Virus record (IMG/VR): IMGVR_UViG_2703719354_000002
DNA length: 13,257 bases
Source of the DNA: a virus
Lineage: Duplodnaviria > Heunggongvirae > Uroviricota > Caudoviricetes
Reading direction: 5' to 3' (one strand)
Shown here: positions 7,117 through 13,257 of the stretch, piece by piece
Layout of the letters: the number at the start of each line of letters is the position of its first letter
Position numbering within the stretch: the stretch's first letter is position 1
Made by a program: the position numbers and the translations under genes
The notes under the pieces: generated by a model
What the model was told of the DNA's origin: nothing
Databases searched by the model: none
What the model saw: the letters and a program-made list of their open reading frames with translations, nothing else

Positions 7117-10797
<3,681 letters not shown>

Positions 10798-10823
<26 letters not shown>

Positions 10824-11343
10824 TCAGCAACCCCGGTATCAGTTCATCCAGCGCGGCTGCTTTGTTCATGGCTTTGATGATATCCCGTTTCAGGAAATCA
10901 ACATGTCGGTTTTCCAGTTCCGGAAAACGCCGCTGCACCGACAGGGGGATCCCGTCGAGAATACTGGCAATTTCACCTGCGATCCGCGACAGCACGAAAG
11001 TACAGAATGCGGTTTCCACCACTTCAGCGGAGTCTCTGGCATTTTTCAGCTCCTGTGCGTCGGCCTGCGCACGCGTAAGTCGATGGCGTTCGTACTCAAT
11101 AGTCCCTGGCTGGAGATCTGTCTCGCTGGCCTGCCGCAGTTCTTCAACTTCCCGGCGCAGCTTTTCGTTCTCAATTTCAGCATCCCTTTCGGCATACCAT
11201 TTTATGGCGGCGGCAGAGTCATAAAGCACTTCATTACCCTTGCCACCACCCCGCAGAACGGGCATTCCCTGCTCCTGCCAGTTCTGAATGGTACGGATAC
11301 TCGCGCCGAAAATGTCAGCCAGCTGCTTTTTGTTGACTTCCAT
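10798..11343 (-). CDS. Nu1: Terminase small subunit gpNu1 (181 aa)
   Basis: Track ORF MEVNKKQLADIFGASIRTIQNWQEQGMPVLRGGGKGNEVLYDSAAAIKWYAERDAEIENEKLRRE... matches lambda gpNu1: N-terminal winged-HTH, C-terminal gpA-binding tail, and a cosB immediately upstream. Confidence 0.95.
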
Positions 11344-11520
11344 TGTTCATTCCACGGACAAAAACAGAGAAAGGAAACGACAGAGGCCAAAAAGCTCGTT
11401 TTCAGCACCTGTCGTTTCCTTTCTTTTCAGAGGGTGTTTTAAATAAAAACATTAAGTTACGACGAAGAAGAACGGAAACGCCTTAAACCGGAAAATTTTC
11501 ATAAATAGCGAAAACCCGCG
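11344..11520 (-). promoter_or_regulatory. cosB, lambda-type terminase small-subunit binding region (R1, R2, R3 with an AT-rich IHF-like spacer)
   Basis: Three GGAAACG-core elements at about 11371..11384 (aaggaaacgacaga), 11409..11423 (inverted, ctgtcgtttcctttc) and 11471..11482 (aacggaaacgcc), with an AT-rich segment at 11437..11465 between R3 and R2. Reverse complement matches the lambda left-end sequence with a few substitutions. Confidence 0.85.
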
Positions 11521-11532
11521 AGGTCGCCGCCC
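11521..11532 (-). other. cosN copy 1: 12-nt cohesive-end sequence (GGGCGGCGACCT on the phage strand)
   Basis: Plus strand aggtcgccgccc is the reverse complement of the lambda cohesive end GGGCGGCGACCT. Flanked by a lambda-like left end on one side and lambda-like right-end DNA on the other. Confidence 0.9.
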
Positions 11533-11731
11533 CGTAACCTGTCGGATCGCCGGAAAGGACCCGCAAAATGATAATAATTATCATCTACATGTCACAACGT
11601 GCATCTACGCCATCAAACCACGTCAAATAATCAATTATGACGCAGGTATCGTATTAATTGATCTGCGTCAACTTAACGTAAAAACAACTTCAGACAATAC
11701 AAATCAGCGACACTGAATACGGGGCAACCTC
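11533..11731 (-). other. Phage right-end (cosQ-containing) DNA adjacent to cosN, lambda-like with substitutions
   Basis: Reverse complement reads ...GAGGTTGCCCCGTATTCAGTGTCGCTGATTTGTATTGTCTGAAGTTGTTTTTACGTTAAGTTGA..GCAGATCAATTAATACGATACCTGCGTCATAATTGATTATTTGACGTGGTTTGATGG...GGTCCTTTCCGG.GATCCGACAGGTTACG, which matches the lambda right terminus as recalled with scattered mismatches. Homology to lambda stops near 11731. Confidence 0.75.
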
Positions 11732-11926
11732 ATGTCAACGAAGAACAGAACCCGCAGAACAACAACCCGCAACATCCGCTTTCCTAACCAAATGATTGAA
11801 CAAATTAACATCGCTCTTGAGCAAAAAGGGTCTGGGAATTTCTCAGCCTGGGTCATTGAAGCCTGCCGTCGGAGACTAACGTCAGAAAAGAGAGCATATA
11901 CATCAATCCAAAGTGATGATGGATGA
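11732..11926 (+). CDS. Small (64 aa) ribbon-helix-helix-like putative DNA-binding protein, copy 1
   Basis: Track ORF MSTKNRTRRTTTRNIRFPNQMIEQINIALEQKGSGNFSAWVIEACRRRLTSEKRAYTSIQSDDG: basic N-terminal arm, a short beta-strand-like NIRF, then two helices split by a KGSGN loop, typical of the Arc/MetJ/CopG fold. It may belong to the small YlcI/YnfO-like proteins found next to cos in E. coli lambdoid prophages, but that is from memory and unverified. Confidence 0.6.
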   Translation: MSTKNRTRRTTTRNIRFPNQMIEQINIALEQKGSGNFSAWVIEACRRRLTSEKRAYTSIQSDDG

Positions 11927-12074
11927 ACATCCCGGTTTCTTCCACCATCGCACCGGAAAAGCGACTATGAGGGTAACCCTGCGTCTGTCAGCACAGTAAA
12001 ACCCGGTGTGCATCGTTTTTGATTATTCCCGCACACTCACGCAGAAGGAATTCCCCGTCGGGCTACGGTCATGG

Positions 12075-12488
12075 TTAATGCGGGAATACGGCGACGATAC
12101 AGCGCAAAAACTGTCGCTGCATGGATAAAGGGATGGAATCAAGCGTACTGGATAACGCCATTGCCAGCTTACTGAGGGCAAAAATACAGAACCCGGTGTC
12201 AATAAGTTTTCCTTTTGACACCTCATTTTTTAACTGCTGTGTAACAGCCTGTTCTGCTGTCAGTTCCCATCTGGCAATAAGCAATTTCTCCTCATAGTCG
12301 TCTTCGCTATCGCCATCAGGCACATCGTTTTTACTTCTCCTCAGATACGATATGTAAAAATCGCGCCAGGCATCCAGATCCAGTTGCCCTCGCTTATTCG
12401 ATATCGGGGCACCCGGCAATTTCTGCAATCTGCGAAGCTGGCGATCGGTCAGACTTAAATGCCTGGCAACTTCAGTCTGCGTAGCCAC
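12075..12488 (-). CDS. Divergent, C-terminally truncated Nu1-like small terminase paralogue (137 aa, GTG start)
   Basis: Track ORF MATQTEVARHLSLTDRQLRRLQKLPGAPISNKRGQLDLDAWRDFYISY...DTGFCIFALSKLAMALSSTLDSIPLSMQRQFLRCIVAVFPH. Compared by eye with this window's own Nu1, the winged-HTH pattern and the central block align (ETAFCTFVLSRIAGEIASILDGIPLSVQRRF vs DTGFCIFALSKLAMALSSTLDSIPLSMQRQF), but the protein ends 9 aa after that block. GTG start at 12486..12488 preceded by GAGGTGAGGAG. Confidence 0.65.
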   Translation of the reverse strand: MATQTEVARHLSLTDRQLRRLQKLPGAPISNKRGQLDLDAWRDFYISYLRRSKNDVPDGDSEDDYEEKLLIARWELTAEQAVTQQLKNEVSKGKLIDTGFCIFALSKLAMALSSTLDSIPLSMQRQFLRCIVAVFPH

Positions 12489-12535
12489 TCCTCACCTCGC
12501 AAAAACTCTCACCTCACAATCACAACAAAACCGGT

Positions 12536-12634
12536 CATGTCCGGTTTACATGTCTGTTTTTTGTTCATGTCCGGTTCACAGAAGACCTGTTTTTATATTT
12601 TTCATATAGTTAACTTGAAGAGATACCGGACATG
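12536..12634. repeat. Three copies of the 9-bp motif CATGTCCGG (two direct, one inverted; 30 and 60 bp apart) between cosN copy 2 and the Nu1-like gene
   Basis: catgtccgg at 12536..12544 and 12566..12574 on the plus strand; ccggacatg at 12626..12634. It occupies the position where cosB sits relative to the first cos. Confidence 0.6.
12590..12620 (-). promoter_or_regulatory. Candidate sigma70-like promoter for the Nu1-like gene (weak -35 TTCAAG, 16-nt spacer, -10 TATAAA)
   Basis: Minus strand reads ttcaag-ttaactatatgaaaaa-tataaa. Judged by eye only; the -35 is a poor match. Confidence 0.25.
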
Positions 12635-12671
12635 GATCCCGGAAAATTTTCATAAATAGCGAAAACCCGCG

Positions 12672-12683
12672 AGGTCGCCGCCC
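12672..12683 (-). other. cosN copy 2, identical 12-nt cohesive-end sequence
   Basis: Second aggtcgccgccc, exactly 1151 bp from the first, inside the second repeat copy. Same right-end flank and the same 33 bp of left-end flank as copy 1. Confidence 0.85.
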
Positions 12684-12882
12684 CGTAACCTGTCGGATCG
12701 CCGGAAAGGACCCGCAAAATGATAATAATTATCATCTACATGTCACAACGTGCATCTACGCCATCAAACCACGTCAAATAATCAATTATGACGCAGGTAT
12801 CGTATTAATTGATCTGCGTCAACTTAACGTAAAAACAACTTCAGACAATACAAATCAGCGACACTGAATACGGGGCAACCTC

Positions 12883-13077
12883 ATGTCAACGAAGAACAGA
12901 ACCCGCAGAACAACAACCCGCAACATCCGCTTTCCTAACCAAATGATTGAACAAATTAACATCGCTCTTGAGCAAAAAGGGTCTGGGAATTTCTCAGCCT
13001 GGGTCATTGAAGCCTGCCGTCGGAGACTAACGTCAGAAAAGAGAGCATATACATCAATCCAAAGTGATGATGGATGA
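12883..13077 (+). CDS. Small ribbon-helix-helix-like protein, copy 2 (identical to 11732..11926)
   Basis: Track ORF with an identical 64-aa translation; lies within the second repeat copy. Confidence 0.6.
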   Translation: MSTKNRTRRTTTRNIRFPNQMIEQINIALEQKGSGNFSAWVIEACRRRLTSEKRAYTSIQSDDG

Positions 13078-13257
13078 ACATCCCGGTTTCTTCCACCATC
13101 GCACCGGAAAAGCGACTATGAGGGTAACCCTGCGTCTGTCAGCACAGTAAAACCCGGTGTGCATCGTTTTTGATTATTCCCGCACACTCACGCAGAAGGA
13201 ATTCCCCGTCGGGCTACGGTCATGGTTAATGCGGGAATACGGCGACGATACAGCGCA

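What the first reader, a model, noticed from the sequence alone, without database searches (positions are those of the whole stretch)
11732..11926. Small RHH-like gene inserted at the mosaic boundary next to cos, duplicated with the repeat
Similarity to the lambda right end stops at the start codon of this 64-aa ORF (lambda has different sequence from that point, as far as I recall). The product has the hallmarks of a ribbon-helix-helix DNA binder with a basic Arg/Thr-rich arm. It is convergent with the Nu1-like gene across a 148-bp spacer and is present in both repeat copies (second at 12883..13077). A DNA-binding protein beside cosQ and cosN could modulate packaging termination or regulate the adjacent gene.
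Basis: partly seen in the sequence, partly recalled or inferred. Interest (0 to 1): 0.5.

Follow-up and report, generated by a model that had tools for sequence, protein, structure and literature searches.

The report
Lambda's YlcI-like small gene beside cos
The 64-codon reading frame next to the phage DNA-packaging site is a real, strongly conserved gene of the known but uncharacterised YlcI/YnfO (DUF3950) family. Phage lambda carries it too, so it is an ordinary part of lambda-like prophages, not a new insertion.

Summary
The ORF is real: 11732..11926 (+), 64 aa, with an identical second copy at 12883..13077 inside a perfect 619-bp repeat. It is a YlcI/YnfO (DUF3950, PHROG 949) protein, a known family of unknown function.

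Lambda aligns at 96% from cos through the whole ORF to 17 bp past its stop. Lambda's copy, complement(48109..48303), is simply unannotated in NC_001416. The mosaic break lies after the gene, not at its start.

It is a genuine gene. dN/dS is 0.02-0.12 against homologues in phages with an unrelated packaging module, and there homology spans only the ORF core.

Function is inferred. The most likely role is a small dimeric DNA-binding regulator encoded opposite the late operon. A packaging role is not excluded.

The duplication is a passenger effect of a second cos block joined to a truncated small-terminase gene. That junction occurs in none of the five public collections searched, so it may be a rare rearrangement or an assembly cycle.

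The parts
11732..11926 (+). ylcI-like gene, copy 1: 64 aa, DUF3950/YlcI-YnfO family, probable ribbon-helix-helix DNA-binding protein
   Evidence: ORF. Pfam PF13132 at 72.8 bits against a cut-off of 25. PHROG 949 and NCBIfam NF041551. dN/dS 0.02-0.12. Fold evidence.
12883..13077 (+). ylcI-like gene, copy 2, identical to copy 1
   Evidence: it lies inside the 100%-identical repeat.
11488..12106 (.). Repeat copy 1 (619 bp). Contains cosN, cosQ, ylcI and 180 bp downstream, including a stretch that matches lambda DNA left of lambdap78, on the bor side
   Evidence: offset 1151, no mismatches. (alignment to lambda).
12639..13257 (.). Repeat copy 2 (619 bp). It runs to the last base of the window, so its true extent is unknown
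11521..11532 (-). cosN 12-nt cohesive-end sequence GGGCGGCGACCT, copy 1
   Evidence: Identical to the lambda left end (my knowledge of lambda).
12672..12683 (-). cosN 12-nt cohesive-end sequence, copy 2
11556..11562 (-). cosQ heptamer GGGTCCT, copy 1. Corresponds to lambda 48473..48479; copy 2 is at 12707..12713
   Evidence: Sequence. Assigning this heptamer as cosQ rests on my knowledge of the lambda literature and was not tested here.
12075..12488 (-). Truncated second-type small-terminase (Nu1-family) gene. Native codons 1-127 occupy 12108..12488, followed by 10 foreign codons reading into repeat copy 1
   Evidence: 127/127 identical to a 169-aa TerS of E. coli prophages. Pfam Phage_Nu1; junction sequence.
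10798..11343 (-). Lambda-type Nu1 (small terminase), complete at 181 aa, divergent from ylcI copy 1 across the 388-bp cos region
   Evidence: Phage_Nu1, E=5.5e-101, full profile length..

Best explanation
This is the lambdoid ylcI gene. The same gene is in phage lambda at complement(48109..48303), in the K-12 DLP12 prophage as ylcI, and in Qin as the longer ynfO.

Shown:
- It encodes a real 64-aa protein under strong purifying selection.
- It belongs to DUF3950/YlcI-YnfO.
- In every lambdoid phage examined it sits between the lysis genes and the packaging genes, on the strand opposite the late operon.

Inferred from the model and fold matches:
- Residues about 13-18 (NIRFP) form the beta-strand and residues 19-32 and 37-50 form the two helices of a ribbon-helix-helix unit.
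- The unit would dimerise and put a two-stranded ribbon plus the basic Arg/Thr arm (residues 4-13) into the DNA major groove.

Inferred from context only:
- It acts as a small sequence-specific transcription regulator made from the prophage strand. It probably regulates itself, and possibly the co-oriented accessory genes downstream (ydfO/ybcV-type DUF1398 genes, or bor in this lineage). It is not a component of cos.

The second copy exists only because the gene lies inside a 619-bp cos-containing block that is present twice.
For: Identity:
- Pfam DUF3950 E=2e-20, PHROG 949 E=2e-35, NCBIfam YlcI_YnfO_N above its cut-off.
- Phages 2G7b and ev207 annotate the same ORF as 'YlcI/YnfO family protein'.
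- Lambda aligns at 96% through the ORF.
- The K-12 ylcI locus has the same 388-bp spacing to nohD.

Real gene:
- Against BP-4795 and an HK97-type prophage, DNA homology begins at the ATG and ends near codon 50, while the flanks are unrelated.
- 18-26 of 26-31 differences fall at third codon positions, giving dN/dS 0.02-0.12.
- Homologues at 33-57% identity keep I15, R16, F17, I25, F37, S38, W40, V41, A44 and C45.

RHH fold:
- The AlphaFold model has coil at 1-18 and helices at 19-32 and 37-60, with core pLDDT 73-79.
- About 45 of the 50 best Foldseek PDB hits are RHH or RHH-like: NikR, Arc, MazE9, ParD2, HicB, TacA, NikA and the TCP domain.
- Named BFVD hits are mostly Arc/CopG/RHH.
- hhalign places IRFP on the Arc and NikR beta-strand in register.

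Regulator role:
- In PICI-like satellites, DUF3950 genes sit next to int and alpA and are divergent from the replication/packaging operon, the usual place for a repressor.
- In Qin and PhiR42_1, ynfO lies 43-57 bp upstream of a co-oriented DUF1398 gene.
- In one distant locus it overlaps the start of a downstream HD-domain gene.
- K-12 ylcI appears in RNA-seq-defined convergent transcript overlaps (PMC12288877).
Against: - Only 1 of 21 family members touches a Pfam RHH model, at E=0.09. hhalign probabilities are 1-13%.
The defining beta-ribbon is therefore not seen.
- No convincing sigma-70 promoter lies between cosN and the ATG; the best candidates match 8 of 12 positions. The Shine-Dalgarno sequence of the lambda-type copy is weak.
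- No operator, target gene or phenotype is known. YnfO is still listed as uncharacterised (PMC11551758).
- No partner gene is conserved next to it. Neighbours include bor, ybcW, a Rha-family regulator gene, ydfO and HNH.
Confidence: 0.55

Rival explanations
1. Packaging-related DNA binder. YlcI binds near the right genome end or interacts with small-terminase/cos recognition. It would tune cos cleavage or termination, or interfere with packaging by competing phages or satellites.
For: - In all lambdoid genomes examined the gene lies at the distal end of the late region, next to the packaging module, for two unrelated terminase types: lambda Nu1/A and HK97-type HNH/TerS/TerL.
- Satellites encode natural fusions of DUF3950 to a Terminase_2 N-terminal DNA-binding domain (P0193 and P0252).
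- The P0252 helix-turn-helix domain is 64% identical to the N-terminus of the adjacent helper prophage's TerS and 53% identical to the satellite's own TerS.
Against: - The ORF is on the strand antisense to the late transcript, so it is poorly placed for expression during packaging.
- It starts 200 bp from the nick site, beyond cosQ.
- In HK97-type phages the HNH gene lies between it and cos.
- Distant members sit in loci with no packaging genes.
- From my knowledge of the literature, short cos fragments lacking this ORF suffice in cis for cosmid packaging.
- The fusion may be ordinary shuffling of DNA-binding domains in satellite regulatory zones (bioRxiv 10.1101/2022.07.18.500453).
Confidence: 0.15
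2. Orphan antitoxin-like or anti-defence RHH protein. It would neutralise a toxin or defence factor encoded elsewhere, or be the remnant of a toxin-antitoxin or defence operon.
For: - Many structural neighbours are RHH antitoxins: MazE9, ParD2, VapB12, TacA, HicB, Rv0298.
- One distant member is divergent from a SymE-toxin gene and overlaps the start of an HD-domain/AEP-like gene pair.
Against: - No toxin-like gene is co-oriented with it in the window, lambda, DLP12, BP-4795 or the other phages viewed.
- There is no PADLOC hit.
- Antitoxins normally carry a C-terminal toxin-binding tail, whereas here the tail after residue about 50 is short and unconserved.
Confidence: 0.1
3. The conserved sequence is a non-coding cos-flanking DNA element, or the gene is on the other strand, and the ORF is incidental.
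For: - The region is 96% identical to lambda, including non-coding DNA up to cos.
- NC_001416 does not annotate the ORF.
- A 50-aa antisense ORF overlaps it at 11704..11856.
Against: - Homology to HK97-type phages is confined to the ORF and begins at the ATG.
- Substitutions are overwhelmingly at third positions in this frame, with dN/dS 0.02-0.12.
- A protein family at 33-57% identity keeps a coherent hydrophobic pattern.
Confidence: 0.03

Closest known systems
E. coli K-12 YlcI (DLP12 prophage) and YnfO (Qin prophage), and the unannotated lambda ORF at complement(48109..48303)
   Same: Same gene.
- 64 aa, identical over residues 1-58 to YlcI; only the tail differs (IQSDDG here, IKSDEE in YlcI).
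- Same position, 388 bp from and divergent to the Nu1/noh gene across cos.
- Same family models hit.
   Different: - Three synonymous differences from K-12 ylcI in the first 50 codons, and a slightly different C-terminal tail.
- Here the roughly 1.1-kb ybcW/ybcV-type segment (lambdap78/79) is missing, so the gene is followed directly by DNA matching the lambda stretch left of lambdap78, on the bor side. Phages Turner and 2G7b have the same arrangement.
Arc/Mnt/CopG/NikR-type ribbon-helix-helix repressors
   Same: - Size and predicted strand-helix-turn-helix order.
- An alternating hydrophobic strand (I-R-F) preceded by a basic arm.
- A G-x-G-N-F-S turn before helix B.
- The best structural neighbours are RHH domains.
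- hhalign register matches Arc and NikR.
   Different: - No significant sequence or profile match to RHH families.
- Dimer, beta-ribbon and DNA binding are not shown.
- No operator has been identified.
Lysogenic-conversion 'moron' genes at the lambda right end (bor, lambdap78/79)
   Same: - Located between the lysis cassette and cos.
- Same orientation as bor, opposite to the late operon.
- Flanked by mosaic breakpoints.
   Different: - No strong promoter or intrinsic terminator was found flanking it.
- The product is a predicted DNA binder, not an envelope protein.
Rpp of Gram-negative PICIs (redirects helper TerS to the satellite cos; PMC6739421, PMC9026076)
   Same: A small satellite or phage protein linked to small terminase and cos specificity. 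Satellites carry DUF3950 fused to a TerS DNA-binding domain.
   Different: - No solved structure, and hence none of Rpp if one is deposited, was matched by the DUF3950 profile or by P0252, beyond TerS domains.
- No evidence that YlcI binds TerS.

Membership tests
DUF3950 / YlcI-YnfO family (Pfam PF13132, NCBIfam NF041551, PHROG 949) | Score above the curated threshold of the family models | tested here: met
   Pfam 72.8 bits against a cut-off of 25. NCBIfam 37.6 bits against 30. PHROG 949 E=2.3e-35 over 60 of 61 profile positions.
DUF3950 / YlcI-YnfO family (Pfam PF13132, NCBIfam NF041551, PHROG 949) | Conserved core motif K-x-IRFP ... NFSAWV-x-[DE]AC | tested here: met
   Alignments A1 and A2: I15, R16, F37 and V41 are invariant; F17, I25, S38, W40, A44 and C45 are at least 90% conserved.
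DUF3950 / YlcI-YnfO family (Pfam PF13132, NCBIfam NF041551, PHROG 949) | In lambdoid prophages: position between lysis genes and terminase genes, opposite strand | tested here: met
   Seen in the window, lambda, DLP12, Qin, BP-4795, WGPS8, PhiR42_1, Turner, 2G7b and two E. coli prophages.
Ribbon-helix-helix (Arc/MetJ/CopG) superfamily | N-terminal beta-strand followed by two helices joined by a tight turn | tested here: inconclusive
   The monomer model has helices 19-32 and 37-60 after an extended N-terminus at moderate confidence (mean pLDDT 68.7). The strand is not formed in the monomer, as expected for RHH, but that does not prove it.
Ribbon-helix-helix (Arc/MetJ/CopG) superfamily | Structural similarity to solved RHH domains | tested here: inconclusive
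Ribbon-helix-helix (Arc/MetJ/CopG) superfamily | Significant sequence or profile similarity to RHH families | tested here: not met
   Pfam RHH_6 is hit by 1 of 21 members at E=0.09. No PDB sequence relative. hhalign against Arc, CopG and NikR single sequences gives probabilities of 0.7-12.8%, although the register is correct. HHpred against full profile libraries was not available.
Ribbon-helix-helix (Arc/MetJ/CopG) superfamily | Obligate homodimer with an antiparallel two-stranded ribbon that binds DNA | not testable with these tools
No multimer prediction or binding assay is available.
Type II toxin-antitoxin RHH antitoxin | Co-transcribed adjacent toxin gene | tested here: not met
   No co-oriented toxin-like ORF follows the gene in the window, lambda, DLP12, Turner, 2G7b or BP-4795. 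No PADLOC hit.
Lambda cos site (cosQ-cosN-cosB) | Lies within the sequence elements needed in cis for cleavage and termination | tested here: not met
   cosN is at 11521..11532 and the cosQ heptamer at 11556..11562. The ORF starts at 11732, 200 bp from the cohesive end. The extent of cos is from my knowledge of the lambda literature.

The most novel reading that the evidence does not exclude
YlcI may be a cos-proximal DNA-binding factor working in the packaging conflict between lambdoid phages and their satellites. It might mark or shield the genome end, or modulate small-terminase recognition. Two observations hint at this. The gene has a fixed place beside two unrelated packaging modules. 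Natural satellite proteins fuse the DUF3950 domain to a copy of the helper's TerS DNA-binding domain.

Separately, if the double-cos arrangement is real, this prophage carries two complete cosQ-cosN sites 1,151 bp apart with different cosB/TerS specificities. It should then shed the inter-cos segment every time it is packaged.
Probability: 0.12. Interest if true: 0.6.

Novelty: already known. Interest (0 to 1): 0.22.

Why it matters
Even phage lambda's reference record (NC_001416) leaves this strongly constrained small gene beside cos unannotated, and its function is unknown in any system. Treating it as a probable ribbon-helix-helix DNA binder gives a concrete, cheap experiment: delete it, do ChIP or EMSA, and run packaging assays in lambda or K-12. 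For the genome scan the value is mostly corrective. The gene is not a novel insertion, and its duplication is a by-product of a repeated cos block whose authenticity is unverified.

Tried and rejected
- **Sequence search of the PDB.** The family profile found only chance hits (E >= 0.2), so there is no solved sequence relative.
- **Pfam at E <= 10 over 21 members**. No consistent second family turned up, and RHH_6 was hit only once.
- **Single-chain dimer prediction** to test the beta-ribbon.
- **AFDB fold library.** Unavailable.
- **Promoter and terminator scans.** Neither the tool scan nor my own scan found a convincing + strand promoter upstream or a terminator downstream. The 148-bp spacer has no unusual RNA structure (z=0.5).
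- **Rfam on 10700..13257.** Nothing above noise.
- **Lambda ribosome-profiling paper.** Not held in the library, so I have no direct translation evidence for lambda.
- **Literature on YlcI, YnfO and DUF3950.** Only variant tables, a y-ome list and an excludon list; no functional study.
- **Source of the duplication.** The exact 33-nt junction was absent from genome contigs, viral contigs and metagenome contigs. A 401-bp junction query found no collinear match in 5,426 complete E. coli genomes or 50,697 phage records. The one 100%-coverage hit, MEI003, is a normal terS-cos-ylcI locus joined non-collinearly.
- **Pasteurella phage Pmp7 hit.** Rejected because the tblastn match is on the strand opposite the annotated 'transcriptional repressor', so that name does not apply.
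- **Top database hits.** Rejected as evidence of diversity. Many are error-ridden copies of lambda sequence on contigs of about 3.5 kb, probably sequencing-control DNA. A few other copies sit in assemblies labelled Staphylococcus aureus or Veillonella.

Full report
**What is there.** The minus strand of the window is the left arm of a lambda-like prophage.
- It carries a complete Nu1 at 10798..11343 (Phage_Nu1 E=5.5e-101), followed by A, W, B and further head and tail genes.
- The 12-nt cohesive-end sequence GGGCGGCGACCT lies at 11521..11532, and the cosQ-type heptamer GGGTCCT at 11556..11562.
- On the + strand, 200 bp beyond the cohesive end, is the ORF named in the finding: 11732..11926, ATG start, 64 aa, MSTKNRTRRTTTRNIRFPNQMIEQINIALEQKGSGNFSAWVIEACRRRLTSEKRAYTSIQSDDG.
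- An identical copy lies at 12883..13077.
- The two copies sit inside a perfect direct repeat, 11488..12106 = 12639..13257. It is 619 bp with no mismatch, offset 1151, and ends only because the window ends.

- The reverse complement of lambda's right end aligns without gaps at 96% (394/411) from the cohesive end through the entire ORF to window 11943, 17 bp past the stop codon.
- tblastn finds a protein about 97% identical in NC_001416 at 48115..48303 on the complementary strand. The reference record simply has no feature there.
- Other lambda-like phage records annotate the same ORF as 'YlcI/YnfO family protein'.
- After 11943 lambda has about 1.1 kb (lambdap78/79) that this window lacks. Similarity resumes at 11999 with the lambda stretch left of lambdap78, on the bor side.
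- Phages Turner, PhiR11_1 and 2G7b have the same compact arrangement at 99.5-99.8% identity.
- The gene is therefore not an insertion at the boundary. The boundary lies just downstream of it.

**Family.**
- The product matches Pfam DUF3950 (72.8 bits against a cut-off of 25), NCBIfam YlcI_YnfO_N and PHROG 949, 'unknown function'. There is no PADLOC hit.
- In K-12 the same gene is ylcI in DLP12, in the order borD, ybcV, ybcW, ylcI, cos, nohD, with the same 388-bp spacing to the Nu1 homologue.
- In Qin it is ynfO, followed 57 bp later by the co-oriented DUF1398 gene ydfO.
- The literature held here gives no function. YnfO is listed among uncharacterised y-ome genes (PMC11551758). ylcI appears only in a list of RNA-seq-defined convergent transcript overlaps with ybcW (PMC12288877) and in variant tables.

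**It is a real, constrained gene.**
- I aligned the locus with two lambdoid prophages that use an unrelated HK97-type packaging module (HNH, Terminase_2 TerS, TerL). DNA homology starts at the ATG and ends near codon 50, and the flanks are unrelated.
- Over those 50 codons, 18-26 of 26-31 differences are at third positions, and dN/dS is 0.02-0.12.
- An exhaustive search of 1.84 billion cluster representatives found 141 clusters.
- After discarding error-ridden lambda copies, which are mostly contigs of about 3.5 kb, 20 genuine homologues at 33-57% identity remain. They keep I15, R16, F17, I25, F37, S38, W40, V41, A44 and C45.

**Fold.**
- AlphaFold2 with this alignment gives a moderate-confidence monomer: mean pLDDT 68.7, 73-79 in the core. 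Residues 1-18 are extended, and helices span 19-32 and 37-60.
- About 45 of the top 50 Foldseek PDB hits are RHH or RHH-like proteins: NikR, Arc, MazE9, ParD2, HicB, TacA, NikA and TCP. All are at E of about 1.
- Named BFVD hits are mostly Arc/CopG/RHH.
- hhalign puts the IRFP segment on the beta-strand of Arc and NikR in the correct register, but at low probability.
- There is no PDB sequence relative and no consistent Pfam RHH hit.
- A dimer could not be modelled.
- I rate RHH as likely, about 0.75-0.8, but not demonstrated.

**Context and function.**
- In all lambdoid genomes viewed, the gene lies between the lysis cassette and the packaging genes on the strand opposite the late operon. This holds whichever terminase type is present.
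- In HK97-type phages an HNH gene separates it from cos.
- In PICI-like or helper-embedded satellites, DUF3950 genes sit beside int and alpA and are divergent from the replication/packaging operon. That is the position of a repressor.
- Some satellite copies are fused to a Terminase_2 N-terminal DNA-binding domain. That domain is 64% identical to the N-terminus of the adjacent helper's TerS. The element type is described in bioRxiv 10.1101/2022.07.18.500453.
- More distant members lie in ordinary chromosomal or island loci.
- No strong promoter, terminator or RNA element was found around the window copy.
- My best reading is a small dimeric DNA-binding regulator encoded on the prophage strand. 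A packaging-conflict role is a minority possibility kept alive by the TerS-domain fusions.

**The duplication.**
- Between the repeat copies lies 12107..12638. It holds a different cosB-side sequence and the first 127 codons of a 169-codon second-type small-terminase gene, 100% identical to a common E. coli prophage TerS. This fragment reads 10 further codons into repeat copy 1.
- The junction at 12106|12107 falls exactly on a recurrent mosaic breakpoint ('...ACAGCGCA').
- The window ends at the equivalent base of copy 2.
- The junction is absent from 5,426 complete E. coli genomes, 50,697 phage records, the GTDB representative genomes, IMG/VR and the JGI metagenomes.
- It is therefore either a rare rearrangement, such as a deletion between two lambdoid prophages, or an R-U-R cycle produced by assembly.
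- Either way, the second ylcI copy is a passenger of the repeated cos block.

**Verdict.** It was wrongly described as absent from lambda and as inserted at a boundary. Interest is low to modest.

Noticed in passing
window 11488..13257: Two complete cosQ-cosN sites sit in direct orientation 1,151 bp apart. The left one is joined to lambda-type cosB/Nu1 and the right one to a different cosB and a truncated second-type terS. The junction 12106|12107 was found in none of five public collections, and the window ends exactly at the equivalent base of copy 2. This could be a real double-cos prophage or an assembly cycle.
   Followed up: partly
window 12075..12488 (-): The small-terminase gene is truncated after codon 127 of 169 and so loses the C-terminal part. 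The breakpoint coincides with a recurrent lambdoid mosaic junction ('ACAGCGCA'). In other genomes that junction is followed by bor-proximal DNA or by a Rha-family regulator gene.
   Followed up: yes
window 11568..11584 (and 12719..12735): A perfect palindrome ATGATAAT-A-ATTATCAT lies just beyond cosQ. It overlaps a minus-strand promoter-like site, GTGACA-16-TATCAT, that reads toward cos and Nu1. From memory it resembles a Fur-box-type sequence. Lambda has GTGATAATGATTATCAT at the same place.
   Followed up: no
window 11630..11670: Nested, overlapping inverted repeats lie 60-100 bp upstream of the ylcI start codon: ATCAATTATGACG/CGTATTAATTGAT and TGACGCAG/CTGCGTCA. They are conserved in lambda, DLP12 and Qin. 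They are candidates for an operator or a protein-binding site, but this was not tested.
   Followed up: no
L006/L007 5001..5363 (P0252); L005 4714..5103 (P0193): Satellite-encoded proteins fuse a DUF3950 domain to a Terminase_2 N-terminal DNA-binding domain and lack the rest of TerS. The P0252 domain is 64% identical to the N-terminus of the TerS of the prophage in which the satellite is embedded, and 53% identical to the satellite's own TerS.
   Followed up: partly
lambda NC_001416 complement(48109..48303) (locus L001): The lambda reference record has no annotated feature for this strongly constrained ORF, although other lambda-like records annotate it.
   Followed up: yes
protein hits P0001-P0120 and many of P0121-P0257: Most of the closest database 'homologues' are frameshifted or error-laden copies of the lambda sequence on contigs of about 3.5 kb, probably lambda control DNA from sequencing runs. 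Separately, a few copies sit in assemblies labelled Staphylococcus aureus or Veillonella, and one phage record is labelled Campylobacter. Together these inflate the apparent family diversity.
   Followed up: partly
window 11368..11424: A 26-nt inverted repeat (85% complementary) lies between the Nu1 start codon and cosN. From my knowledge of lambda it corresponds to the oppositely oriented Nu1-binding R elements of cosB, so it is an expected feature.
   Followed up: no
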